A DNA stretch of 27,471 bases. Origin: Synechococcales cyanobacterium VAR_4_metabat_354. Its GTDB lineage: Bacteria > Cyanobacteriota > Cyanobacteriia > Cyanobacteriales > Chamaesiphonaceae. The notes under the pieces are model-generated. The model did no database searches and was not told the origin of the DNA. It saw only the letters and a list, made by a program, of their open reading frames with translations. Made by a program: the position numbers and the translations under genes. The stretch lies in NCBI GenBank assembly GCA_031414775.1, contig JANOQI010000030.1, forward strand, positions 1 to 27,471, in the 5' to 3' direction. Each line of letters opens with the position of its first letter. The stretch's first letter is position 1. Below, one piece after another: positions 221 through 24,192 of the stretch.

Positions 221-328
221 AGCTCAATCCTTAATCCTGGGGGGAGATTCCGATAGTTTCTTAACCAGTTTTCCACGGTGCTTTGTTGCACGCTCGCATC
301 ATCTGTACACAACGTGTTGGTCAATGGC

Positions 329-1660
329 ATGAACCTAAAATATCTGATTTCCACCATCTTGGTGATCGCATTACTCGGTTTACTGGCTTGCGCACCCCCT
401 GCTTTCTCGGAATCAAATAGCATCAGTCAAGCTGAGTACCAGCAACGTAGCGAGCAGATCGCCAGCTTTTTAGAGGAGCGTAGAAAGCGATTGAACGTGG
501 TAAGAACCACACAAACCAAGTCTGGCCAGATACTTGACTGGATTAAGCCAGAGAGTCAACTTCCAGAGGGTATGAAAATAGAGCAGACTCCTCCTACTCA
601 AAAGCCTGATCTACTGCAACCTGAGAATGAAAACAGCAATGATTATCTGCAGAATAAACTGCCGCGAACTCTCATACGGCTTGGTCGTCGGGAGTTGACA
701 GCCAGGACTGAGTTGCAGAATGATGCTTCAGTAGTAGGTCCATCGGGTACCGTGCCTGTTGTGCGTTTTGATCTAGAAGGTTATCTGAAGGCTAATCCCA
801 CGTATCTGCCTCGAGATCCGCGCGAGTTGTTTTCTAAAGTACCTCCTCCTGCTCCTGCCTCGAATAATCGCTATTATGCCGTTTGGCAGCGCTTTAGCGA
901 TAACTTTGGTACTCTGGGACGCATAAATATTTGGGACACTGATGGCCCTGTCGGTAATGAGACTTCGATCGCTCAGACGGCTGTGATACGGGGAACTCCA
1001 ATGCAGGCGATCGAGGCAGGCAAAATAGAGACAACAGGCTTTGCACCCTCGAAACGCCCCACTTTTTTCACGTACTTCCGAACCAATGGATCTGCCAGTG
1101 GTGACTGGGTAGGCGGGTATAACGCCTTAGTAGATGGATGGATTCAAGTATCCCGTAGTGTGGCACCTGGCATGTCGCTGGTTCCCTGGGAGAGCCGAAT
1201 CGATGGCTCTCAGTACAGTCTCGATGTTGAGGTTCGCCTGTGGCAAGGGAACTGGTGGGTGAGAGCAGCGGGAGAGTGGGCTGGTTATTATCCCTTCTGC
1301 AAGGGTGGTGGCGCAGCTCCGTGTTCTGATGGTTCACTATTTTCTGAGGCAGGAATTCGCGATAAAGCTGATCGGCTGGATTGGTACGGCGAAATATTTG
1401 ACGCAAGCGCACCCGCAACTACTTCCACGGATATGGGTAGCGGACAATTTGCTGATCGACGTTGGGGTAATGCAGCCTACTTCCGAAATATACTTTATAT
1501 GTGGTCACCCACCAATGCCTGGTGGTGGTCATCAGGTTCGATCGGCACAACAGATAGTGCCTGCTATAGTGCTGATGGACCTTACTACAGTTCAGATGAT
1601 AACTGGCGAAATTGGTTTTATTATGGTGGCCCAGGTAAAGAGGCTAGTGGTTGTAAATAG
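329..1660 (+). CDS. Secreted neprosin-like (DUF239) glutamic peptidase with pro-domain
   Basis: Signal peptide MNLKYLISTILVIALLGLLACAPPAFS. Pro-domain motifs SGQILDWI and GPSGTVPVVR. Catalytic-type motifs IEAG and WYGE, plus GNWW, GYYP, TDMGSG and C-terminal FYYGGPG, as in neprosin domains. ATG 329 preferred over the track start at 278. Confidence 0.85.
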   Translation: MNLKYLISTILVIALLGLLACAPPAFSESNSISQAEYQQRSEQIASFLEERRKRLNVVRTTQTKSGQILDWIKPESQLPEGMKIEQTPPTQKPDLLQPENENSNDYLQNKLPRTLIRLGRRELTARTELQNDASVVGPSGTVPVVRFDLEGYLKANPTYLPRDPRELFSKVPPPAPASNNRYYAVWQRFSDNFGTLGRINIWDTDGPVGNETSIAQTAVIRGTPMQAIEAGKIETTGFAPSKRPTFFTYFRTNGSASGDWVGGYNALVDGWIQVSRSVAPGMSLVPWESRIDGSQYSLDVEVRLWQGNWWVRAAGEWAGYYPFCKGGGAAPCSDGSLFSEAGIRDKADRLDWYGEIFDASAPATTSTDMGSGQFADRRWGNAAYFRNILYMWSPTNAWWWSSGSIGTTDSACYSADGPYYSSDDNWRNWFYYGGPGKEASGCK

Positions 1661-9860: not shown

Positions 9861-12800
9861 TCACCATAAATCTTGGATAAGCTCTGCTCGAACATCTTCC
9901 CTAGAGGCTTCACTATTATATTTCTTTGCAAGCTCTCTTAAAATTGCGGCTGTTTGCGGCCATTGATTCCCAATTTGGCTAGCATCTTTCGCATACTTTT
10001 CTCCAAGAATACGCTCTTGTTCGCCTCCATCAGTTGACGATCGACAAGTAACACCGCGATTATTGTAGATTTGAGTACGCCAACTATCCTTAACTGTTGA
10101 ACTTGCCAATTCAATTAAATCTCGGACAATTCTGTGAGGCCATGCACCATCTGGATCGGTGGGAGAAAAAGAAAAGCAACGACCAATATAATGATCGGCG
10201 ATCTCACTTCGATCGCATTCAGCAGCAAGTTCGCAAACCTTGAAAACCCAAGTTCTCAAAGCGGTATCATCAACCGTTCCGTCTTCCAGTACTCCAGGCA
10301 ATTGCTTCCATTCTTCAAGTAAACGCCAGACTAACCGTGCTAAAAAGGGGTTGGGCTGTTTATCATTCTCATTAGCTTCGGTTTGATTTTCTGCATGGCA
10401 GGTGCATTGAAGGGTTTCTACAAAAAATTCAGGGTTCTTTGATAATCGATCGAATAGTATCCGAGGACTGCGAGAATGGGCATGAATTTGGAAATACGCT
10501 AACTCCAAATTTATAAGACGATCGCGTGAAAATTTAGTCTTCTCTAGATAGTTTAGCAACTCCGTTGAGTCATGAGGAAATAAATCAGAATCATAGTCTT
10601 TTCCAGGCTCAGTCTGAACAGATGCTTCAAGAACTTCGGCGATTCGATCGAGCGAAAAGAGTTCTGGATTTTTATCCAAGACCCAGGCAATTTTGGGAAC
10701 GGCAAGATGAGGTCTACCAACTTCGAGAAGTTTTGCTAGTACCCAATCAGTTCGATCGATTCCCAGAAATTCAACGCGCTCTACATGAATCCAAAAGTAG
10801 CCTTGAGTCTCTGAATTAGCATCATCCAGTCGATCTAATAAGCATAAGTTAAATGGCAGACAGAGCAAGAATTTTCCATACTCTTCTGCGCTCCAGAGCG
10901 GTAAATTATCTTTTAGGCAGGCATCAATCCACAATTCACCTCGCTCGTAAGCATTACAATGTATATAGCTGCTTGCTAATTCATGTCGCCATCGATCGAG
11001 AGAGCCAAGATGTTCTCGAAGAAATAGAGTTAAGTCGATTGGCAGTGATTGTGTTTGAGCTAAAGCCACACCCACAAGATTGGGTGCCCGCACTTGCTGT
11101 GCTAATTGGATAACTCCAGCCCATCCTTGGGAATTTATGATTTTTTGCAATGCCTCCGATCTCAATTCTTCAGCAATTTTGTCTCGTTCCTCTGATGAGA
11201 GATCAGGTTTTCCTGGAATTTCCACCCCATACTCGAAAAGTTCGCGGTAGCGGTATACCGGATCGTCCGGCTCAAGTTGTGTCAAGATTGCTTCGAGTCG
11301 TTGAATGTTTTCGATCGACATCGACCGCTGAGAGTCAAAAAATTTGTGATAGTCAGAAATCTCGCGACGTAGGCGGTCAGATATTTGAACTCGTTCTTCT
11401 GCGGAAAATTGCTGGCATGTGAGCGTTTCTAGTGCATTTACGATCGTATTCTTTTGATTAGGATGTATGAATCTTATCATGTCAATTAGCTCACACCAAC
11501 AAGCTATGTTCATACCAACAAGAGAAATTAGCTGCGCCAGAATTGCATCATTTGGGTCAGTAATATCTTGAAAAGGTCTTTTTGTCGGATTTTCTAGTAC
11601 CCAGTCGCGCCATCTCGTCCTTTGCTCAATATGATTAATACCTTGATAAAGTAGACGGAAAAGGTAAATCAGTAAGTTCCAAGCTATCTCTGGTTCCTGC
11701 TTATGAATTATGTTGATTATTTGTAGGCAACCGTGCCAAGAAATACCAGCATTGGGATGAAAGTAAATCCAATAAGTAAAAATCGCTTTCAAGCTGTCTG
11801 CTGGTCGAGGGCACAAATTCCCACCTGGATCTAAGCGCGTTAGACGTGCTAGCGATAATGCCACTCGACTCAAGTAGTCATGATTTAATGCCAACGTCCC
11901 TAGTGCCCGAAGCAGCCCAGGATGTGGCGATGATAAAGCTAACCTTGAAGTCGGCTCTTGAAATAAGCTGACCAGGATCGGGGTTTCTCCAGCTAAACCC
12001 GCCTCGATCGCGTCTAGCAAAATTTCTGGTGCAGCCTCAGCAATTAAAGGCAGTTTATCGGACAATGAAACCCACAATATCGGATTATCTTTCGCCTGTT
12101 CCATCAATCGCCGAACTATTTGGCTGGCAACATCTTCACCCGATCGATTCCCACTAAACGAAATTTCAGGACTAAGAGTTGCCATCAATGCCATCATTTC
12201 CAAAATGCTCTCTCGCAACCAATTCGATCGAGTGAAAACTTTCCCATAAAAAGGTGCCATCATTCTTTTTTCAGGCGGTAACTCAAATGCTGGGTCAAGT
12301 TCGCTCAACACCTCAAGGGCAACATTCTCAAAACGTTTCAGATCGTCATCGGTAAGATAACGTGCAATCAGTATCCAAGCATCTTCTTGAGAGGCGATCA
12401 TCCACACGTCTCCTACTCGGCGAATGGGAGCATCCGGTTCATTGGCCCAGCGTACCCATTGGGCTTGAATCGCATCATAAGATTGCTCTGATAGTTGCTC
12501 TAAAACCTGTCGATCGCCCTTACAAGAGTCACTCCAGGTACTGACAAGTAATGGCGCAAGCAACACCCGCGCCTCATCAGATTTTGCCCATGCTGGTTGC
12601 TGAATATTTCTGGCGATTGCCAGTTTTCGTCTCAGCGCAGATAGGCTACGTCGAGCAAGAGTTGTATAGCTGTATGATTTCCTTCTATTTAACCCCATGC
12701 CCTGCAAAGCTTTTTCTGCGGCATCATGCACTATGCGAGGCAAAAGATTTTCACGATCGGAACTCAATCGATCGCATGGTATGAAAACATGATGACCATT

Positions 12801-13274
12801 CTGAATTGCTGTTCCAATACCTTCTGGCTCTCCCAGTTCAACAATTAAAATCATTGGATCGGTTGACTCAGTTAGGTGTTGCCAAGATGTCTCACAATCG
12901 ATAACAACTGCACGATCTAAAACGTTAGCTCGTTCTTCCGGCTCCAGTCCCTGCACGACTGCTGCTAAAAAAGCACTCACCTCTTTTTGTGATTCACCTT
13001 GCAATGTGAGTACGGCAGGATTTCCCCGCAGCCATTCGATCGCGCGATCTCGATCTTTCTCCCGCCCACCGATTACCAGATCTGGACTGAATGATGGTTT
13101 TGTATCTTGCGACCAGCTTTTCCAGAATCGATCGAGGGTGCGGACTTTTGTCGGTAATATGTGAATGTTTTGGGTGAGATGCTCGACTTTAGCGATAGCA
13201 ACTCCACTATTTAGAGCAATATTTTGGCTTTCGTCGCCAAAACTAGATTGTGAAATACTCTTGGGATCGGTCAT
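9861..13274 (-). CDS. Large helical protein, putative degenerate STAND/NLR-like receptor with an N-terminal amyloid-like motif
   Basis: 1137-aa uninterrupted ORF. Low-complexity N-terminal ~40 aa, then LVIGGRE and a P-loop-position segment VLTLQGESQKE lacking GKT, followed by a long helical Leu/Trp-rich region. Confidence 0.6.
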   Translation of the reverse strand: MTDPKSISQSSFGDESQNIALNSGVAIAKVEHLTQNIHILPTKVRTLDRFWKSWSQDTKPSFSPDLVIGGREKDRDRAIEWLRGNPAVLTLQGESQKEVSAFLAAVVQGLEPEERANVLDRAVVIDCETSWQHLTESTDPMILIVELGEPEGIGTAIQNGHHVFIPCDRLSSDRENLLPRIVHDAAEKALQGMGLNRRKSYSYTTLARRSLSALRRKLAIARNIQQPAWAKSDEARVLLAPLLVSTWSDSCKGDRQVLEQLSEQSYDAIQAQWVRWANEPDAPIRRVGDVWMIASQEDAWILIARYLTDDDLKRFENVALEVLSELDPAFELPPEKRMMAPFYGKVFTRSNWLRESILEMMALMATLSPEISFSGNRSGEDVASQIVRRLMEQAKDNPILWVSLSDKLPLIAEAAPEILLDAIEAGLAGETPILVSLFQEPTSRLALSSPHPGLLRALGTLALNHDYLSRVALSLARLTRLDPGGNLCPRPADSLKAIFTYWIYFHPNAGISWHGCLQIINIIHKQEPEIAWNLLIYLFRLLYQGINHIEQRTRWRDWVLENPTKRPFQDITDPNDAILAQLISLVGMNIACWCELIDMIRFIHPNQKNTIVNALETLTCQQFSAEERVQISDRLRREISDYHKFFDSQRSMSIENIQRLEAILTQLEPDDPVYRYRELFEYGVEIPGKPDLSSEERDKIAEELRSEALQKIINSQGWAGVIQLAQQVRAPNLVGVALAQTQSLPIDLTLFLREHLGSLDRWRHELASSYIHCNAYERGELWIDACLKDNLPLWSAEEYGKFLLCLPFNLCLLDRLDDANSETQGYFWIHVERVEFLGIDRTDWVLAKLLEVGRPHLAVPKIAWVLDKNPELFSLDRIAEVLEASVQTEPGKDYDSDLFPHDSTELLNYLEKTKFSRDRLINLELAYFQIHAHSRSPRILFDRLSKNPEFFVETLQCTCHAENQTEANENDKQPNPFLARLVWRLLEEWKQLPGVLEDGTVDDTALRTWVFKVCELAAECDRSEIADHYIGRCFSFSPTDPDGAWPHRIVRDLIELASSTVKDSWRTQIYNNRGVTCRSSTDGGEQERILGEKYAKDASQIGNQWPQTAAILRELAKKYNSEASREDVRAELIQDLW

Positions 13275-13285
13275 TATTCTATTCC

Positions 13286-13708
13286 TTACTCATGAATAGT
13301 CAAATTACCAGCAACATTACCGAATACCTTGCCTTCTGAAACTTGACCGATCATCTGTACCCCATCACCTGTTGAAGTCTGGTTTATCTGAATTCCAATA
13401 TTGCTTTTTGCCAGGACTTGACTGATCTCTCTGGCCAAATCTGGATTCTCCTTCAGCAATATTTCTAATTCTTCCTGAAAGACAGCTCTACGAGGCTCAC
13501 TGTCCGGCTTTGCTACTAACTGTTCTGCTGCAATTCTGGCATCATCCTTTGCTTTTAGCACAGGTTCTATTTTTTTCCAGATTTCCTTGACCACTATTTC
13601 AACACTACTTTTACCAATTTGTGTAAAGGCACCATTCATTAGTAAAGGCAAGTAAGGAATAAGACAATCCTTTGCTGCTATGGCAATATCAGTAATATGA
13701 CTACTCAT
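13286..13708 (-). CDS. Small Bell-like helical protein with a C-terminal amyloid-like (BASS/RHIM-like) motif
   Basis: Hydrophobic N-terminal helix (LIPYLPLL), IWKKI and PDS...LEILLKENPDLAREI helical bundle, then the tail GIQINQTSTGDGVQMIGQVSEGKVFGNVAGNLTIHE. Ends 11 bp upstream of the 1137-aa gene. Confidence 0.7.
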   Translation of the reverse strand: MSSHITDIAIAAKDCLIPYLPLLMNGAFTQIGKSSVEIVVKEIWKKIEPVLKAKDDARIAAEQLVAKPDSEPRRAVFQEELEILLKENPDLAREISQVLAKSNIGIQINQTSTGDGVQMIGQVSEGKVFGNVAGNLTIHE

Positions 13709-14049: not shown

Positions 14050-14077
14050 ATGCCAAATAAGGTATAATGTTTGGTAT
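14050..14077 (+). promoter_or_regulatory. TA promoter -10 box with overlapping operator-like inverted repeats
   Basis: TATAAT at 14063-14068. ATGCC-AAATAA-GGTAT and ATGCCAAA...TTTGGTAT are imperfect palindromes. Confidence 0.55.
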
Positions 14078-14435
14078 GGAAGACAAACCAATTAATTGGA
14101 TCGGCAGTTCTAGAGATGATGTCTGTTCCTTCCCCGAAGAAGCCCGACGCAAAGCTGGCTTCCAACTACGTACCGTCCAGCGAGGCGAAACTCCGACAGA
14201 CTTTAAACCGATGCCTACCATTGGGAAGGGAGTCCAAGAAATCCGCATTCGGACGGAAAACGCCTATCGAATATTCTATGTAGCGAGGTTTGAAGAAGCA
14301 GTCTACATTTTGCACGTATTTCAGAAGAAAACTCAAAAAACTGCCCAGCAAGATCTACAAATCGGCCACCAGCGTTATCAAGAAATGATGGAATATCGAA
14401 AACTTCAACTACAGGAGGATAATTCGCATGAGTAA
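14076..14435 (+). CDS. Type II TA toxin, RelE/ParE (HigB/Gp49-like)
   Basis: WIGSSRDD...AGFQLRTVQRG...KPMPTIGKGVQEIRI...YRIFYVA...LHVFQKKTQKT. Toxin-first order. Confidence 0.9.
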   Translation: MEDKPINWIGSSRDDVCSFPEEARRKAGFQLRTVQRGETPTDFKPMPTIGKGVQEIRIRTENAYRIFYVARFEEAVYILHVFQKKTQKTAQQDLQIGHQRYQEMMEYRKLQLQEDNSHE

Positions 14436-14718
14436 TATAAAAAAAGGCAGTGGCAATATTTTTGAAGATTTAGGATTTGATAAGGAGGAATCCACTAATC
14501 TAAAGATTAGAGCAGATTTGATGCTGGACTTGCGAAAATTTATTCAATCCCAAAATTGGACACAAGCAGAAGCCGCAGCATTTTTTGGAGAAACACAACC
14601 TCGGATTAGTAATTTGATGAATGGCGATATCGATCGATTTGGTATCGATAAATTAGTCCAAATGCTATCGTTTGCTGGCATGAATGTTCGAGTTCTGGTT
14701 ACGCCTAAAGGGGGCTAA
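14428..14718 (+). CDS. Type II TA antitoxin, XRE-type HTH (HigA-like)
   Basis: GSGNIFEDLGF, TQAEAA...TQPRISNLMNG...FGIDKL. Overlaps the 3' end of the toxin; RBS GGAGG. Confidence 0.9.
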   Translation: MSNIKKGSGNIFEDLGFDKEESTNLKIRADLMLDLRKFIQSQNWTQAEAAAFFGETQPRISNLMNGDIDRFGIDKLVQMLSFAGMNVRVLVTPKGG

Positions 14719-17299: not shown

Positions 17300-20200
17300 T
17301 CAAAAATCCTCGAAATCCTCTCCTGAAGAGGGTTCCCGTAACGAACGAAATTCTCCCTGCTGAATTAATTCAGGTAAAGCAAAGGAATACCGTCCCAGCA
17401 TATTTATATGCTTGTATCCCAAAGGTGAAAGCCGAGCCAGATCTTCCGGTTTTAGCTCCATACCAGTCGCCTTGAGTTTGGAGATGGCAGCATCCATGTA
17501 GAAAGTGTTCCACAGCACTATTATATTCACCACCAAGCCAAGTGCTCCTAATTGGTCTTCTTGACCCTCTCGATATTTTTTGTGAATCTCTCCACGTTTT
17601 CCATACAAAACAACTCTCGATAAACTGTGACGACCCTCACCACGATTAAGTTGAGTTAAAATACGGCGGCGATAAGTCTCATCATCCAAATAAGGCAGTA
17701 GATATAAGGTTTTAGCAATCCGTCCCAACTCCCCGATAGCTTTCGACAACGTAGTGGAACTACTCCCTCTTTGCAGAGAACGCACTAAATCCAACGCACT
17801 GACAATTCCTAATTTGAGGGAACCGGCTACTCGCAACATATCATCCCAGTTATTGTTAATCAGGGTCGTATTGACTTGATTTCTGGCAATACTATTGAAC
17901 GCCCCATAATCGGCAGTTGCATCAATTCGCCAATATCTTGTCTCTCCAATATCCGCCAGCCTCGGACTGAACTGATAACCCAACAACCAAAATAAACCAA
18001 ACACTACATCACTATAACCAGCAGTATCAGTCATGATTTCTTGTGGTTGCAAGCTAGTTTGCTGCTCCAATAATCCCGCTAGCAGAAACAGAGAGTCACG
18101 CAATGTCCCTGGAATCACAATCCCATGGAAACCAGTAAATTGGTCACTGGTAAAGTTGTAATAAGTAATGCCACGTCCCACCCCAAAGTATTTACTATTT
18201 GGTCCAGCATTGATCGTTCGCACCGGAACAGTAAAACGGATACCATCGGCTGAAGCAACCTCACCACCACCCCAAGTTTGTGCCAGTGAAATCTCTGATT
18301 GGGCAGCTACTAGCCTAGCATTGGCACGAATCAGCGTTTCCTGTCGGATATAATTTTGCTTCAACCAAGAGAGTCTGGCACGAGTCAATGCCGGAACATC
18401 TGGACAGACGAGTGGCTCCAGACCAATATTACAAGCTTCTGCCAATAAAACTGCACAGGTACTGATGTGTAAGTCTTCTATTCGAGCATTAGTTTGACTC
18501 AAGTGGGCAAATTCTGAGGCGAATCCAGTCCGGGCATTAATTTCTAGCAACACTTCTGGCAAATCAACACGGGGCAACATGGATGCAATTTGTTCCTTCA
18601 ATGCTTTGAGGGAATCAGATTCTGGTAATTTATCTAAGCCCGTCACAATCAGTGTGTCCTGGCCATTTTGTTGCTCGATGCGAACAGCAGCATTAGTGGG
18701 TAGATTCAATGCTGTTTGACGATAAGCCTTATCAAGTTGAGATCTTAATCCCACCAATTCAACGTCAAAAGTTGGTTCCAGCTCTAATGCCCGACATACA
18801 CCAGCTCTAGCTGCTTCCCAAGCTGCTCCTTGTAGAAGTTTGGCATGAGGGTCGCAGTAGCGGAGGCTGGGTTGTACGAAGGTGTCGCGGCGACGCAAGG
18901 CGGATCGGAGGCATTGCAAAACACAGAAAGTATACGCCTTTCGATCAATTTCTCCATCCGCGCCAATTACTAATTTCACCCAACTTTTATTGACCACAGC
19001 AATTGGAGCATCCTTCACTACTGGGTTCTTCTGCCCCTCAATCAAACGCAGAAATTGCCATGCTTCCAGAATCGGTTTAACAGCTTCTGTGCCCTTAAAT
19101 TCAATTGTATCCAGCAGTTTAGGTAAATATATTCGGATATGTCGCCAACGGGATAACATTTTTTCGTAGTACTTATCTTCAGGTGGGCGAACTAGCTCTT
19201 TGACCTTGGCTACAGCCGTTGTTAATTTTTCTGCGGAGACGATCTCAAACACTAATGAACGTACATCAACATCTTTGGTTGAAAGATCTAAGAGCACCTC
19301 ACTTGCTTCAGTAAGCCGTAATGCTGCTGCATCCAGGTCTTTCAGCGTCCGCAGTCGTTCCTTCTCCCCATCACTTTTAGACTTCGTCAATATTGAACCA
19401 ATCAGCAAATCAAACAAGTCTAAGACATCATCAGTCGCGGTAAATTCCAGCAGATAAACAAAAGCAAGCATTGTAGCTATTCTTCTACTTTCTGGCATTC
19501 GAGTAATGGATTGAGAACGAACAGCACCAGCAGAACGAGCTAAGACCTTCAAGCGATTGGGAGGGACTCGTGAAACATCTATTGTGCTAATCCCTAACGA
19601 ACGCACCTCTGCCAGACGATTTAGAGCTGCAACTAATACTGGCGCACTCACCCGATTTGGTGGATGTCGCAATCTATCCATGGGTGAGCTACGTTCTCCG
19701 TCCTTTACTACCAGCAACTCTTCCAGTTGTTTACGTTGAGTGGGATTAGGAAGTTGCGATAAAGCCTGAAATAACCGATGTGCAGCCCGTTCGCGAACGC
19801 TGGCAACCAATCTCACTAAGCTAGTCACACCAGGAAGCAGAATTTTCCTCTGTACCAACCTAGCAGTAGCAAGATCAAATAATAAACTGGGAGACTCCGT
19901 GCTTAGAGTTGCACGTTGATACAGCCAACGCACTAATCGCCAATGTTCTGGTTGAGAGTTAAAATCTTGGTAGCCATAACACTGCCGAATTAAAACAGTG
20001 TGCTCCCGTTTAGTCTTAGAGTTACGATATAGCGACAAATTTAACAACTTTCTAATCCCCAGTTGTTTTGCTAAGTAATTGATCACTACAGTTGGCACAT
20101 CGATTGGATTGCTTAAAAAAGTGCCTAGAAATCTTACTGTACATAGCTGAAGAGCTAAACCCAGTCGATTGTGATTGCCACGTCGTCCTCTAATTAACTG

Positions 20201-20311
20201 ATGGTCTGAATCATCTAAATGAAAGTACTTTTCCAGTTGTTCTAAGGATGGCTCTCCACCATAGCGTCCATAGCATTTTTCCTGTTCTGAAGTTAAAAAT
20301 TCAACTGGCAT
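17300..20311 (-). CDS. tnpA: Tn3-family transposase
   Basis: MPVEFLT start, NRLGLALQL, DDE motifs ASADG / MTDTAGY / LNRGE, ARLSPL; 1003 aa. Confidence 0.97.
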   Translation of the reverse strand: MPVEFLTSEQEKCYGRYGGEPSLEQLEKYFHLDDSDHQLIRGRRGNHNRLGLALQLCTVRFLGTFLSNPIDVPTVVINYLAKQLGIRKLLNLSLYRNSKTKREHTVLIRQCYGYQDFNSQPEHWRLVRWLYQRATLSTESPSLLFDLATARLVQRKILLPGVTSLVRLVASVRERAAHRLFQALSQLPNPTQRKQLEELLVVKDGERSSPMDRLRHPPNRVSAPVLVAALNRLAEVRSLGISTIDVSRVPPNRLKVLARSAGAVRSQSITRMPESRRIATMLAFVYLLEFTATDDVLDLFDLLIGSILTKSKSDGEKERLRTLKDLDAAALRLTEASEVLLDLSTKDVDVRSLVFEIVSAEKLTTAVAKVKELVRPPEDKYYEKMLSRWRHIRIYLPKLLDTIEFKGTEAVKPILEAWQFLRLIEGQKNPVVKDAPIAVVNKSWVKLVIGADGEIDRKAYTFCVLQCLRSALRRRDTFVQPSLRYCDPHAKLLQGAAWEAARAGVCRALELEPTFDVELVGLRSQLDKAYRQTALNLPTNAAVRIEQQNGQDTLIVTGLDKLPESDSLKALKEQIASMLPRVDLPEVLLEINARTGFASEFAHLSQTNARIEDLHISTCAVLLAEACNIGLEPLVCPDVPALTRARLSWLKQNYIRQETLIRANARLVAAQSEISLAQTWGGGEVASADGIRFTVPVRTINAGPNSKYFGVGRGITYYNFTSDQFTGFHGIVIPGTLRDSLFLLAGLLEQQTSLQPQEIMTDTAGYSDVVFGLFWLLGYQFSPRLADIGETRYWRIDATADYGAFNSIARNQVNTTLINNNWDDMLRVAGSLKLGIVSALDLVRSLQRGSSSTTLSKAIGELGRIAKTLYLLPYLDDETYRRRILTQLNRGEGRHSLSRVVLYGKRGEIHKKYREGQEDQLGALGLVVNIIVLWNTFYMDAAISKLKATGMELKPEDLARLSPLGYKHINMLGRYSFALPELIQQGEFRSLREPSSGEDFEDF

Positions 20312-20342
20312 GTTAGATATCCGGGGAGAAGATTTTTAGGAG

Positions 20343-20810
20343 TCAAACCTTTTCCCCTATTTGCTTATACGAAGTGCCACAGTATGGACAGAATTTAAAC
20401 TTCAGGGATAGAATCGTTTCTCGACAATCCACACAGCGATTACGAAGAGCCGTTGCACAAGCAAAGCAATACTTTGACCTCAGATCAGTCCACATCGGAT
20501 CTGGTGTTGTGCCTGGTGTCCAGCACTGGGGACAAAATTTGACGGCGCTCATGTTAGCGATCGGAATTTTTTTAACTACGGCATCCAAATAGTCTTGAGG
20601 TATCCCCAATGCTGCGGCTAGACCAGACTTAGCTTTTTGATTCAAGCGACTGGTCAGCCCGGTTTCAATCTTACGAATAGTTTGAATGTGTATTCCAGCT
20701 TTTAAACTCAGCTCTTTTTGAGTACTGGTGGATTCAGCCCGTAGTCTTTGAATATACTTAGCCAATGTCTCCTCAGCTTGGGGAGCCACATCTCGAATCG
20801 CACTTTGCAT
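20343..20810 (-). CDS. XRE-type HTH protein with a C-terminal double zinc ribbon
   Basis: TQKELSLKAGIHIQTIRKIETG HTH; CPQC, CFAC, CVDC and CPYC pairs. Confidence 0.85.
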   Translation of the reverse strand: MQSAIRDVAPQAEETLAKYIQRLRAESTSTQKELSLKAGIHIQTIRKIETGLTSRLNQKAKSGLAAALGIPQDYLDAVVKKIPIANMSAVKFCPQCWTPGTTPDPMWTDLRSKYCFACATALRNRCVDCRETILSLKFKFCPYCGTSYKQIGEKV

Positions 20811-20894
20811 AAAGTATATTCAAAAAGGTATGCTTTAATAATAAATTATTATTTGCTTCTTAAGTCAAGTAGTTTGAATCAGTGATACAAAATA

Positions 20895-21788
20895 ATGGTA
20901 ACGTTAGCTAGTTTGGCTACTGAATTTTTGGAACGTCCGGGACTAGCTGCAACCACGTTACGTTCCTATGAGTTCACCTTGATGCCTTTACTCAAAGAAT
21001 ATGGTCGCTGGTCAATAGATATTTTAGATCGACAATTGCTAGTTGAATATCTCAATCAAATAACAGATATTTCATATACCACTCATCATCGCCATCAAGC
21101 TATAGTTACTGCCTTATTTAACTTCGCTATTCAGCAGAATTATATCCAGTCTAATCCAATCTCTAATCTTAAACGCCGCAAGCCAAATCGTGTAGATGGG
21201 GAGCACGCTACCGATGAAAATGTTCGTTATCTTATCCCAGAGCAATTAAGGACTTTATATCAGGTTATCAAAAAAAATGCTCGAATGTCTGCTTTAGTGT
21301 ATTTGCTACATAGCAGTGGAGCAAGGATTTCTGAGATATTAGCTTTGGATTTATCAGAAATAAATATTGGTGTTCATAAATTCCAAGTCATTGGCAAAGG
21401 TAATAAAACTAGATGGTGTTTCTACAGTGAAGATGCCGCAGATAGTCTAAATTACTATATTAAACATATAAGGCATTCAGGTCATTCCGCACTGTTTACT
21501 GCTGAACAGCCATTTACTCAGTTACATTCTCGTCTTTCTTATAGAGCTGCCTATCAATCCTGGATTGAGCTTAAAAGTTCAGAAATTATATTGCAGGGAA
21601 TTCGCTTCCATGATTTACGACATACTTTTGCGACCGAAAGGGTTGGTCTGATGGGAATTGAAGAGCTAAGAGCATTAATGGGACATGAGAATATTCAAAC
21701 GACTTTAAAATACTCAAAAGTCACCTCACAACGTGCCGAACAAGTAGCACTGCTAGCTTTTGAACAGATGGCTGCTGATAAAGGATGA
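20895..21788 (+). CDS. Tyrosine recombinase (probable cointegrate resolvase)
   Basis: Catalytic set R (GARISE), K (GKGNK), HxxR (HDLRH), H (MGH), Y (LKYS). Confidence 0.93.
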   Translation: MVTLASLATEFLERPGLAATTLRSYEFTLMPLLKEYGRWSIDILDRQLLVEYLNQITDISYTTHHRHQAIVTALFNFAIQQNYIQSNPISNLKRRKPNRVDGEHATDENVRYLIPEQLRTLYQVIKKNARMSALVYLLHSSGARISEILALDLSEINIGVHKFQVIGKGNKTRWCFYSEDAADSLNYYIKHIRHSGHSALFTAEQPFTQLHSRLSYRAAYQSWIELKSSEIILQGIRFHDLRHTFATERVGLMGIEELRALMGHENIQTTLKYSKVTSQRAEQVALLAFEQMAADKG

Positions 21789-22834: not shown

Positions 22835-24192
22835 CAATAGTCCGGACAGATTTATGGTGTCAAAGAACCGTACTGGAGAAGGCTGGCGTAGTTAGGATGG
22901 GATTTAATCCAAGTCAGGTCAAGGTCTAACATGGAAATAAATCGCTCAAGTAAATGATGATTGAGTGCTTGTCGCTTGTAGGTTGCCATGGAAAAAGACA
23001 ATGGTTCTGAATCATCCTCAGATTGTGCTGGTAGTTGGTCTAGCTTGGCGATGTTGAGCGCACAGAGGGATGTATTAAAATGAAAATCCAAGCTTGATTC
23101 TTGGCGTGATTGACAGTCGCACAGACCTGTAAACTGCTTGGCATCCCTGAAAATGAATTCTATCTGGAATCTTGCTTTGTAGTAGGAATACAAACTTTCA
23201 GGACTGATATTGATGTCTGTAGAAAAAAGTAACGCCACTCGTACTTTGTCTGAATTGCTAGTGTTGACTAGATAGACGATGCGGATTTGGCGTTTTAGCG
23301 AGATATGCCAAACAATTTGGCTGTAAAGGTAAACATCTTCATCGACTTCACCGATAAATTCCATCCGAGATAAATCATTCAAATATACCTTCCCATCGTA
23401 TTTTCGATGTGCTCCTCTAGGTTTTTGAATACCCATGTAGCAGTAACGCAGGTTAGCATCAATTCGTAGTTTACTGACCAACTGAAGTTCTAGTGCAACA
23501 ACGCCATCAACAACTGTTTTCTTACTATAGAAACTATCTGCTACCAAATATTTCACTGCATTGGAAAAGTATGGACGAGTCTTCTTAAGGTGCTCCAGAT
23601 AGCCCTGAACTCTTTTTGAGACCAGAGCTTCTGATTTAGTCTTTACCTGTTTTGAAGGCATCCTCTGAGTGAAAGCAGTCTGCTGTACTGATAGGGTGTA
23701 ACCTTGACAAGCATCTATATCTACCACTGAAATTACTGAAATCTCTAGTCCCTTTTCAGACTTGCCAGCACTACCATTATAAAAAGAATCTATTCCCCAA
23801 GTCGTCTTTCCACTCTTTTTCACAAAGGAGCAGTCAATGGCAGCGACTTGTTCTCGATTGGAGGGAATCGCCATGGCGATTGCTTCAGAGTTGAATTTGA
23901 TGAAATCAAAAGACTTCCGATACTGCCTCCCGTAGGTTCGCTCAGAATAATCACCATAACGACTAAGATTCGTGAAATTTGCTTTTCCACAGACCACGAA
24001 CAGCGTCACAAACAAGCTGGCTAAAAACTGTCGCTGGGGTTTGCTAAATGACCCGCTTTTGTAAGGAGGGTCTGTATAATATCGTTCATACGGCGATTCT
24101 TCTGGTACTTTGTTGATACTTGTACCTTACGCGATGAATCGCTTTTCGTCGATATTTGGTACTTTGTCGTTGTAAATCTGTCTGGACTATTG
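22835..24192 (-). mobile_element. Insertion sequence, DDE type (IS701/IS4-like), 1358 bp
   Basis: 20-bp terminal IRs CAATAGTCC(G/A)GACAGATTTA, 19/20 match, at 22835-22854 and 24173-24192. Confidence 0.9.
22852..24089 (-). pseudogene. DDE transposase with a -1 frameshift near codon 11
   Basis: IDCSFVKKSGK, VADSFY and YKARFQIEFIFRDAKQ motifs. N-terminus MNDIIQTLLTK (ATG 24089) joins SGSFSKPQRQFLASLFVTL only after a -1 shift at about 24057-24060. Confidence 0.8.

What the first reader, a model, noticed from the sequence alone, without database searches (positions are those of the whole stretch)
9861..13708. Candidate amyloid-signalling defence module: Bell-like effector and large receptor share a matching motif
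Seen: the C-terminus of the 140-aa protein (I108-H139, INQTSTGDGVQMIGQVSEGKVFGNVAGNLTIH, about 13292-13387) aligns with the N-terminus of the next gene (I7-H38, ISQSSFGDESQNIALNS-GVAIAKVEHLTQNIH, about 13161-13256). The shared pattern is I-x-Q-[TS]-S-x-G-D-x-x-Q-x-I...S..G...V...IH. The genes are co-oriented and 11 bp apart. Known: fungal HET-s/NWD2 and bacterial Bell-BASS/NLR pairs use this layout, in which the receptor templates amyloid folding of a membrane-targeting cell-death effector. Inference: this is a plasmid-borne abortive-infection system, possibly with an uncatalogued motif family and receptor type.
Basis: partly seen in the sequence, partly recalled or inferred. Interest (0 to 1): 0.9.

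Follow-up and report, generated by a model that had tools for sequence, protein, structure and literature searches.

The report
Avs8-like receptor paired with amyloid effector
A cyanobacterial gene pair links a small Bell-type cell-death protein to a large relative of a known phage-capsid sensor that has lost both its DNA-cutting domain and its ATP-binding motif and carries a short amyloid-type tag instead; relatives in gut bacteria appear to have made the same swap separately, which suggests a testable route from phage sensing to amyloid-triggered cell suicide.

Summary
The genes, spacing and motif coordinates are right. The two motifs alone are not significantly alike, but family profiles are (hhalign 93.5%, E 2e-7). 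The 140-aa protein is Bell/HetE-N-like. The 1,137-aa partner is not NB-ARC/NACHT: it is a remote, collinear relative of the capsid-sensing STAND Avs8/PD-lambda-4A (95%, 802 columns) with an eroded Walker A. Most relatives carry an N-terminal nuclease-like domain; the motif replaces it (0 of 189 nuclease forms, 46 of 67 others). A Bell gene flanks 8 of 13 motif loci and 0 of 63 nuclease loci. One operon puts one Bell gene before four motif-tagged receptors. Gammaproteobacterial relatives lack the NTPase domain and pair with Bab/GapS6a through a BASS11-like motif, apparently a separate origin. Best reading: anti-phage receptor that kills through amyloid templating (0.72). Amyloid, toxicity, ligand and plasmid location are untested. 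Motif-like sequences already sit in published BASS datasets. The scan had not noted this sequence; other non-NLR motif pairs were noted elsewhere. New variant of a known kind.

The parts
13286..13708 (-). Gene for 140-aa Bell/HetE-N-like effector (P0002)
   Evidence: 8 of 58 proteins carry PF20701 HetE-N; Atlas neighbour cluster 12% HetE-N; five helices, residues 2-101
13637..13705 (-). N-terminal helix of the effector (residues 2-24), candidate membrane-inserting helix
   Evidence: Helix H2-24 in model; best 19-residue Kyte-Doolittle mean 1.32; membrane role inferred from Bab/HET-S
13307..13399 (-). Effector-side motif (residues 104-134), G/I/Q/N/V-rich, disordered in the monomer model
   Evidence: alignment; pLDDT under 50 for residues 107-140; conserved in alignment A2
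13283..13287 (-). Shine-Dalgarno-like purine run overlapping the effector's stop codon, 8 bases before the receptor's start
   Evidence: Read directly from sequence; suggests translational coupling (inference)
9861..13274 (-). Gene for 1,137-aa Avs8-related receptor (P0001)
   Evidence: No Pfam, NCBIfam or PADLOC hit; 5,771 relatives at 50% clustering; hhalign to PD-lambda-4A family 95.1%
13179..13271 (-). Receptor-side motif (residues 2-32), in the place of the nuclease-like domain of most relatives
   Evidence: residues 1-23 low-confidence in model
12609..13154 (-). AAA+/STAND-type P-loop fold with eroded nucleotide-binding motifs (about residues 41-222)
   Evidence: VIA-align matches of model residues 24-223 to ClpA/ClpB/ClpC NBD1 and RFC, Z 7.1-7.7, rmsd about 4 A; collinear with the Avs8-family NTPase
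12975..12998 (-). Eroded Walker A (residues 93-100); the GK[ST] of the Avs8 family aligns to E98-V99-S100
12357..12581 (-). Winged-helix-like region (about residues 232-306); the gammaproteobacterial relatives begin here, right after their own motif
   Evidence: Secondary structure (assignment as winged helix is my inference); blastp start at residue 233
9864..12350 (-). Alpha-solenoid (HEAT/ARM/TPR-like) sensor region, about residues 309-1137
   Evidence: homology to Avs8-family sensor to about residue 914

Best explanation
A two-gene anti-phage cell-death module that signals by amyloid-type templating. Step 1 (inferred from homology): the large protein is a pattern-recognition receptor; its alpha-solenoid binds a phage protein, most likely the major capsid protein as for Avs8 (about 45% for that ligand). 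Step 2 (inferred): binding makes the receptor oligomerise without ATP turnover, since Walker A is lost, and brings the short N-terminal motifs together into a cross-beta nucleus. Step 3 (inferred from Bab/Agp and HET-S/NWD2): this nucleus converts the matching C-terminal tail of the Bell-like protein, which frees its N-terminal helix to damage the membrane and kill the infected cell. Shown here: the gene layout, the family-level motif match, the replacement of a nuclease-like effector by the motif, co-occurrence with Bell genes, and homology to Avs8. The motif works as a shared connector: the same Bell type serves NB-ARC-TPR, NACHT and nSTAND1-WD40 receptors at the same loci.
For: Motif match by profiles. 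Motif and nuclease-like domain never occur together: 0 of 189 against 46 of 67. Bell gene in 8 of 13 motif loci, 0 of 63 nuclease loci at fetched flanks, 10 of 13 after wider flanks for motif loci. One natural Bell-motif-receptor fusion, P0090, and PNP fused forms, the all-in-one pattern described for BASS systems. L122: one Bell then NB-ARC-TPR, NACHT, nSTAND1-WD40 and this receptor, all motif-tagged, near DISARM drmA/B/C; DISARM genes also at L126 and L012. A second Bell/nSTAND1 pair with this motif in the same genome tops all 1,029 adjacent pairs. Homology to Avs8 family. Gammaproteobacterial relatives pair with a GapS6a/Bab-family gene (136 bits, cut-off 90) through a shared motif, 0 of 5,000 shuffles reaching the score, at three loci read on DNA, one in a P2-like prophage; that small protein keeps D2, G11, Y14, D15 and the Q/D/N spacing named as needed in Bab.
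Against: The window's own pair is weak: not significant pairwise, 9 bits against 20-33 for many relatives. No co-variation within clades (14,526 and 4,373 of 20,000 permutations). The window protein has no HetE-N or GapS6a hit, and the best relative scanned scores 17 bits against a cut-off of 25; its first helix lacks the acidic residue at position 2-3 and is shortened after the helix. The 0-of-63 contrast is partly taxonomic, as most nuclease loci are not cyanobacterial and the Bell profile is narrow. Receptor genes are broken at 3 of 10 Bell-linked loci (L127, L128, L017). Avs8 homology is remote (15% identity), so the ligand may differ.
Confidence: 0.72

Rival explanations
1. The shared motif is a non-amyloid homotypic adaptor: the two tails pair as a few beta-strands in a defined complex, like the effector-associated domains of Kaur et al., and recruit the effector to the receptor oligomer without self-propagating fibrils.
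Against: Length, composition (G, I, Q, N, V, S, T dominant; 10 prolines in 34 segments) and disorder in monomer models fit BASS motifs; like sequences are in BASS data sets; the parallel gammaproteobacterial pair uses a BASS11-like motif, shown amyloid for Bab/Agp.
Confidence: 0.11
2. The system type is real but this copy is decaying or rewired: its receptor motif has drifted and no longer templates the neighbouring effector, or it signals to the second Bell protein on contig C33.
For: Low pair score (36 against 58-78 for several other pairs); one-residue deletion in the receptor motif; broken receptors at 3 of 10 loci; second Bell gene in the genome.
Confidence: 0.1
3. The pair signals in a non-phage process (stress, plasmid conflict, cell-fate control) or acts without killing.
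For: The function of Bell/NLR pairs in cyanobacteria is stated as unresolved; the window has no recognised defence system next to the pair, only a HigBA-like toxin-antitoxin pair and partition genes.
Against: Avs8 homology, nuclease-like or PNP domains in relatives, DISARM neighbours at 3 of 13 motif loci, prophage location of the E. coli relative, patchy spread (3 of 39 genomes of the family).
Confidence: 0.07

Closest known systems
Bell-BASS / NLR gene pairs (Dyrka et al., bioRxiv 10.1101/2020.01.06.895854)
   Same: Adjacent collinear genes, short gap, about 140-aa five-helix effector with C-terminal motif, large receptor with N-terminal motif, cyanobacterial host, all-in-one fused forms.
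   Different: Receptor is not NB-ARC or NACHT (that screen took only those) and has no intact Walker A; motif is not one of the ten consensus families as far as I could judge by eye, though like sequences occur as outliers and unassigned pairs in the data set.
Avs8 / PD-lambda-4A, a STAND that senses major capsid protein (bioRxiv 10.1101/2025.07.02.662641; Lee et al. Nature 2026, PMC13581612)
   Same: Collinear homology from the nuclease linker through NTPase and sensor (802 columns); relatives of the window protein have a like length of about 1,260 aa with an N-terminal nuclease-like domain. Lee et al. mention an Avs8 member, KpAvs8, with degenerate Walker motifs.
   Different: Only about 15% identity; no nuclease; Walker A eroded; output is a separate Bell-like protein through a motif. 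'Amyloid' does not occur in either version of Lee et al.. Whether KpAvs8 belongs to this family could not be checked.
Bab/Agp (GapS6-type) amyloid abortive-infection system (bioRxiv 10.1101/2024.11.07.622273)
   Same: Bell-related effector plus non-NLR receptor joined by a shared amyloid motif; experimentally proven mechanism used as model here. Gammaproteobacterial relatives of the window receptor pair with a Bab/GapS6a-family gene.
   Different: Agp is TPR-GreA/B-C-PIN; the receptor here is unrelated in architecture. The window's motif is not BASS11 and its effector shows no profile match to the GapS6a-family protein (0.3%).
Fungal HET-S / NWD2 (as described)
   Same: Receptor N-terminal motif, effector C-terminal motif, adjacent genes.
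   Different: NACHT-WD40 receptor, HeLo domain, two motif repeats in the effector; no fold match to HeLo found for the window effector.
Inactive STAND (iSTAND) modules (PMC8195603; PMC12839542)
   Same: STAND-type fold with eroded Walker motifs, proposed sensory role.
   Different: Those lie in MoxR-vWA ternary or BREX systems; homology to them was not tested.

Membership tests
Bell-BASS / NLR pair | Adjacent collinear genes with a very short gap | tested here: met
   11 bp, same strand
Bell-BASS / NLR pair | Effector of about 120-140 aa with a five-helix domain and free C-terminal tail | tested here: met
   Helices 2-24, 35-53, 55-66, 71-87, 89-101; tail pLDDT under 50
Bell-BASS / NLR pair | Sequence membership of the Bell domain family | tested here: inconclusive
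   No Bell model in the libraries; HetE-N on 8 of 58 relatives, below cut-off where rescanned; likeness to the Bell protein BAY13571.1 of the BASS data set by eye only
Bell-BASS / NLR pair | Hydrophobic N-terminal helix with an acidic residue at position 2 or 3 | tested here: inconclusive
   Family consensus starts M-D; the window protein has its first Asp at 7 and moderate hydrophobicity
Bell-BASS / NLR pair | Shared motif of about 25 aa at effector C-terminus and receptor N-terminus, rich in G, N, Q, V, I | tested here: met
Bell-BASS / NLR pair | Receptor with NB-ARC or NACHT domain | tested here: not met
   No Pfam hit; Walker A eroded through the family. NB-ARC, NACHT and nSTAND1 receptors with this motif do occur beside it at other loci
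Bell-BASS / NLR pair | Motif belongs to one of BASS1-10 | tested here: inconclusive
   By eye on 4 of 241 parts of the supplement plus term searches: one like sequence in set C01, a weaker one in C09, two in unassigned pairs. No profile scoring against the BASS sets was run
Bell-BASS / NLR pair | Motif forms amyloid and cross-seeds | not testable with these tools
   Needs fibril and seeding assays
Avs8 (PD-lambda-4A) | Homologous STAND NTPase plus helical sensor in the same order | tested here: met
   hhalign 95.1%, E 3.3e-8, 802 columns against six cyanobacterial matches of the PADLOC model; reversed control 0.1%
Avs8 (PD-lambda-4A) | Match to the PADLOC PD-Lambda-4_A model | tested here: not met
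   None for the window protein; 15-22 bit partial hits for six nuclease-bearing relatives
Avs8 (PD-lambda-4A) | N-terminal Mrr-type nuclease | tested here: not met
   Absent from the window protein; a nuclease-like domain is present in 189 of 256 relatives and aligns weakly to the Avs8-family N-terminus
Avs8 (PD-lambda-4A) | Intact Walker A and B | tested here: not met
   Lee et al. report degenerate motifs in KpAvs8 too
Avs8 (PD-lambda-4A) | Partner gene avs8B | not tested
   Neighbours are the Bell-like gene and parA; no direct comparison with Avs8B
Avs8 (PD-lambda-4A) | Binds and is activated by HK97-fold major capsid protein | not testable with these tools
   No host phage known; not modelled
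Bab/Agp | TPR-GreA/B-C-PIN receptor | tested here: not met
   No such Pfam/NCBIfam hits; fold differs
Bab/Agp | GapS6a/Bab-family effector with BASS11 motif | tested here: not met
   Not for the window protein; met for the gammaproteobacterial relatives' partner

The most novel reading that the evidence does not exclude
One large, unnamed sister family of Avs8 (thousands of clusters) has at least twice dropped its nuclease and coupled to a Bell-type killer through an amyloid motif: in cyanobacteria keeping an ATPase-dead STAND domain, in Gammaproteobacteria dropping the NTPase domain altogether and using BASS11 with a Bab homologue. Phage capsid protein would then nucleate a signalling amyloid with no nucleotide switch, and in cyanobacteria one motif would wire several unrelated receptors, across loci, to a single effector as an immune hub.
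Probability: 0.35. Interest if true: 0.85.

Novelty: new variant of a known kind. Interest (0 to 1): 0.66.

Why it matters
Amyloid signalling in bacteria has, in the texts I could read, one proven anti-phage case (Bab/Agp), and the role and ligands of cyanobacterial Bell/NLR pairs are stated as open. This finding ties such a pair to a receptor family with a concrete ligand candidate (major capsid protein), shows a nuclease effector exchanged for an amyloid tag, and points to a compact E. coli prophage version with a Bab homologue that can be tested in laboratory strains with existing BASS11 reporters. It also asks how a receptor with no working ATPase, or no NTPase domain at all, keeps an amyloid nucleator silent.

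Tried and rejected
Pairwise significance of the two window motifs: failed. Complex prediction of three effector tails with two receptor motifs: no verdict, score 0.02, controls not run; not evidence either way. Fold searches of the effector model: no match above Z 4.8 or E 0.8; no HeLo, MLKL or Bab entry listed, which does not exclude them. Foldseek of the receptor gave only generic alpha-solenoids. PDB sequence searches found nothing at E under 0.05. Profile match of the effector family to the E. coli GapS6a protein: none. Within-clade co-variation: none. Promoter and terminator counts equal chance. Plasmid test: no plasmid record matches the module DNA or the 373-aa neighbour, no terminal repeat. 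Readthrough or frameshift fusion of the two genes: the receptor frame has a stop six codons upstream of its start, so not favoured. The genome-contig scan with the single protein returned one locus only. KpAvs8 and EcAvs8 sequences could not be obtained. Profile scoring against the BASS1-10 sets was left out, so the motif's family assignment rests on reading. Rejected labels: 'HigA/HTH regulator', which plasmid records give to HTH-fused relatives; classical NLR.
Full report
Observation. The window is the whole contig C30 of a 3.56-Mb, 99.96% complete genome; the closest named relatives of both proteins are cyanobacterial, from Chamaesiphon. On its own the match is weak: score 28, reached by 316 of 5,000 shuffles and 33 of 1,029 adjacent ORF pairs of the genome. 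With relatives it is clear: hhalign of the two families gives 93.5%, E 2.3e-7 over 32 columns, and a profile made from the tails of 57 effector relatives ranks the receptor's N-terminus second of 3,306 ORF N-termini in the genome. First place goes to another gene, on contig C33, an nSTAND1 NTPase with an intact P-loop lying 25 bp behind a second Bell-like gene.

The small protein. AlphaFold gives five helices (residues 2-101) and a low-confidence tail, the layout described for Bell domains (Dyrka 2020; I read parts 1-3 of 10 and passages, not the figures or Table S2). Eight of the 58 proteins carry Pfam HetE-N, but the window protein has no such hit and a rescanned relative stays under the cut-off. 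Fold searches gave nothing. Bell membership is therefore likely, not proven. Its first helix differs from the family's M-D start and is only moderately hydrophobic.

The large protein. It hits nothing in Pfam, NCBIfam or PADLOC yet has 5,771 relatives at 50% clustering. The model (pLDDT 87) has an AAA+-like domain at about residues 27-222 (Z 7.1-7.7 to ClpA/B/C and RFC, middling scores) and a long alpha-solenoid. Walker A is eroded through the family. Weak hits of nuclease-bearing relatives to PADLOC's PD-Lambda-4_A model at matching positions led me to fetch true matches of that model from cyanobacteria (6 of 301 genomes). Six such proteins, aligned and compared with the 98-sequence family alignment, give 95.1%, E 3.3e-8, 802 collinear columns at 15% identity; their intact Walker A falls on residues 93-100 of the window protein; the reversed alignment scores 0.1%. 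PD-lambda-4A is Avs8, a Mrr-nuclease STAND activated by HK97-fold major capsid proteins (10.1101/2025.07.02.662641, passages; Lee et al., preprint part 1 of 11 and passages; Nature version passages). Lee et al. note a member, KpAvs8, with degenerate Walker motifs; its sequence lies in supplements too large to read here, so it may already be a tested member of this family.

Effector swap. Of 264 receptor-family proteins, 256 had 15 or more residues ahead of the core. In 189 that region is a roughly 165-aa nuclease-like domain (my label, from its motifs and its weak alignment to the Avs8 N-terminus) and none has the motif (best -0.8 bits); of the other 67, 46 have it at 8 bits or more, 50 at 5 bits or more. 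Others carry PNP, NB-ARC or HTH domains. P0090 fuses Bell domain, motif and core in one chain.

Gene neighbours. Of 120 loci with a core match I dropped 25 lacking the start of the core and 17 duplicates. A Bell gene lies in 8 of 13 motif loci (the window included), 0 of 63 nuclease loci and 0 of 2 others; 50 of the 63 had 1.2 kb or more upstream. The contrast is partly taxonomic. Wider flanks, fetched for motif loci only, raise it to 10 of 13; the other three are short contigs or a fragment. At L122 one Bell gene heads an operon of NB-ARC-TPR, NACHT, nSTAND1-WD40 and this receptor, each with the motif; L123, L126 and L128 also share one Bell among two or three motif-tagged genes. DISARM genes adjoin L122, L126 and L012. 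The receptor gene is broken at L127, L128 and L017.

Co-variation. Over 17 pairs (10 read on DNA, 7 inferred only from equal contig lengths) cognate pairs beat permutations (9 of 20,000), but the signal is one split: in the window's clade both partners have lost the asparagine of the N-Q core. Within either clade there is none. This is one event, not many.

A second, apparently separate coupling. Relatives on a Buttiauxella plasmid, a Photobacterium plasmid and in an E. coli P2-like prophage (7 of 5,426 E. coli genomes at 80% cover) are about 930 aa, match residues 233-1123 of the window receptor (26%, E 1e-76) and so lack the NTPase-like domain. Each follows, 5 bp on, a 106-aa gene of the GapS6a family (136-139 bits for the two scanned; third by sequence). 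The two ends share a motif no shuffle of 5,000 matched; the small protein has D2, G11, Y14, D15 and the Q-x6-D-N spacing named for Bab and BASS11 (10.1101/2024.11.07.622273, part 1 of 8 and passages; its supplements are closed). Of 120 listed relatives 41 are of this length, 36 with the motif, against 0 of 74 longer, nuclease-type ones. In a FastTree tree of 106 sensor regions, midpoint-rooted, the gammaproteobacterial group (14, support 1.0) nests among those longer forms and a clade of 24 without the nuclease signature (support 1.0) nests among the 1,260-aa nuclease forms, far apart. Labels came from a pattern and nine scattered rows share the default label; no one-clade test or outgroup was used, so two origins are likely, not proven.

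The motif in the literature. The Dyrka 2021 data file (PMC8086366; passages and 4 of 241 parts of supplement 1 plus term searches) holds a near-identical pattern as C01_s033, a set I infer to be BASS1 from its size, and in the unassigned pairs BAY13571/BAY13572 and EKU96908, the latter two receptors with the same basic, tryptophan-containing leader seen in 23 of 50 motif receptors here. So the motif was glimpsed but not, in what I saw, defined as a family. Pysz 2025 (PMC12261475, part 1 of 6) adds no family. Searches found no paper joining Avs8-like receptors with amyloid motifs, and none citing the four accessions searched; subscription journals and the journal versions of the two Saupe-group preprints are not covered.

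Location. C30 carries parA/parB, a Tn3 transposase, an integrase, a toxin-antitoxin pair and second copies of recD2, rsgA and msrA, as expected of a plasmid or island, but no plasmid match or circularity was found. The receptor is patchy: 3 of 39 genomes of the family, 0 of 11 others of the genus.

Mechanism and verdict. Shown: layout, family-level motif match, motif-for-nuclease replacement, Bell linkage, Avs8 homology. Inferred: phage-protein binding (capsid about 45%), ATP-independent oligomerisation, cross-beta templating, membrane damage. It works like Bab/Agp and HET-S/NWD2 (0.72); it is not a member of the classical Bell/NLR pairs (no NB-ARC or NACHT), of Bab/Agp, or strictly of Avs8. 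New variant of a known kind; interest 0.66.

Noticed in passing
L107:6172-8662 (G000 contig C33): Second Bell-like gene (151 aa) with an nSTAND1 NTPase (669 aa, intact P-loop, predicted membrane segment) sharing the same motif family; a 181-aa ORF follows and may be a separated C-terminal part. Possible cross-talk with the window pair.
   Followed up: partly
L134:6121-9239, L130:2576-5670, L146:2065-3129: GapS6a/Bab-family gene paired with an NTPase-less 930-aa relative of the receptor through a BASS11-like motif; annotated hypothetical; not found in the papers searched.
   Followed up: yes
Proteins P0357, P0360, P0361, P0362: Four of the 930-aa relatives carry a different N-terminal motif with a Q-[VFC]-G-D-N core that looks like the BASS3/RHIM type by eye: perhaps a third motif on the same sensor. 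Neighbours not seen.
   Followed up: no
L122:1-12376: One Bell gene followed by four motif-tagged receptors of four different classes, near DISARM drmA/B/C.
   Followed up: partly
Receptor relatives such as P0073, P0098, P0112; L123:12314-13636; L016:5134-5574: 23 of 50 motif-bearing receptors have a basic, tryptophan-rich, amphipathic-looking leader before the motif, possibly a membrane anchor; the window protein lacks it. The same leader plus motif heads unrelated proteins with no Pfam hit.
   Followed up: partly
Proteins P0076, P0079, P0080, P0081, P0107; P0119-P0125: Two uncharacterised N-terminal domains fused to the same core: a 110-aa helical domain ahead of the motif, and 270-380-aa helical regions without it.
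   Followed up: no
L004, L005, L007, L135, L136 and 74 proteins: A 1,185-aa subfamily joins a different nuclease-like N-terminus to the same sensor and matches the window protein only from about residue 205-230 on; no library names it.
   Followed up: partly
window 14067-14718: HigB/Gp49-like toxin with HTH antitoxin, divergent from the module.
   Followed up: no
window 278-1660 and 1305-2057: Neprosin-family peptidase ORF overlapped by a second long ORF in another frame.
   Followed up: no
window 17300-21788: Tn3-family transposase with HTH-double-zinc-ribbon gene and tyrosine recombinase; IS701/IS4-like transposase at 22852-24015.
   Followed up: no
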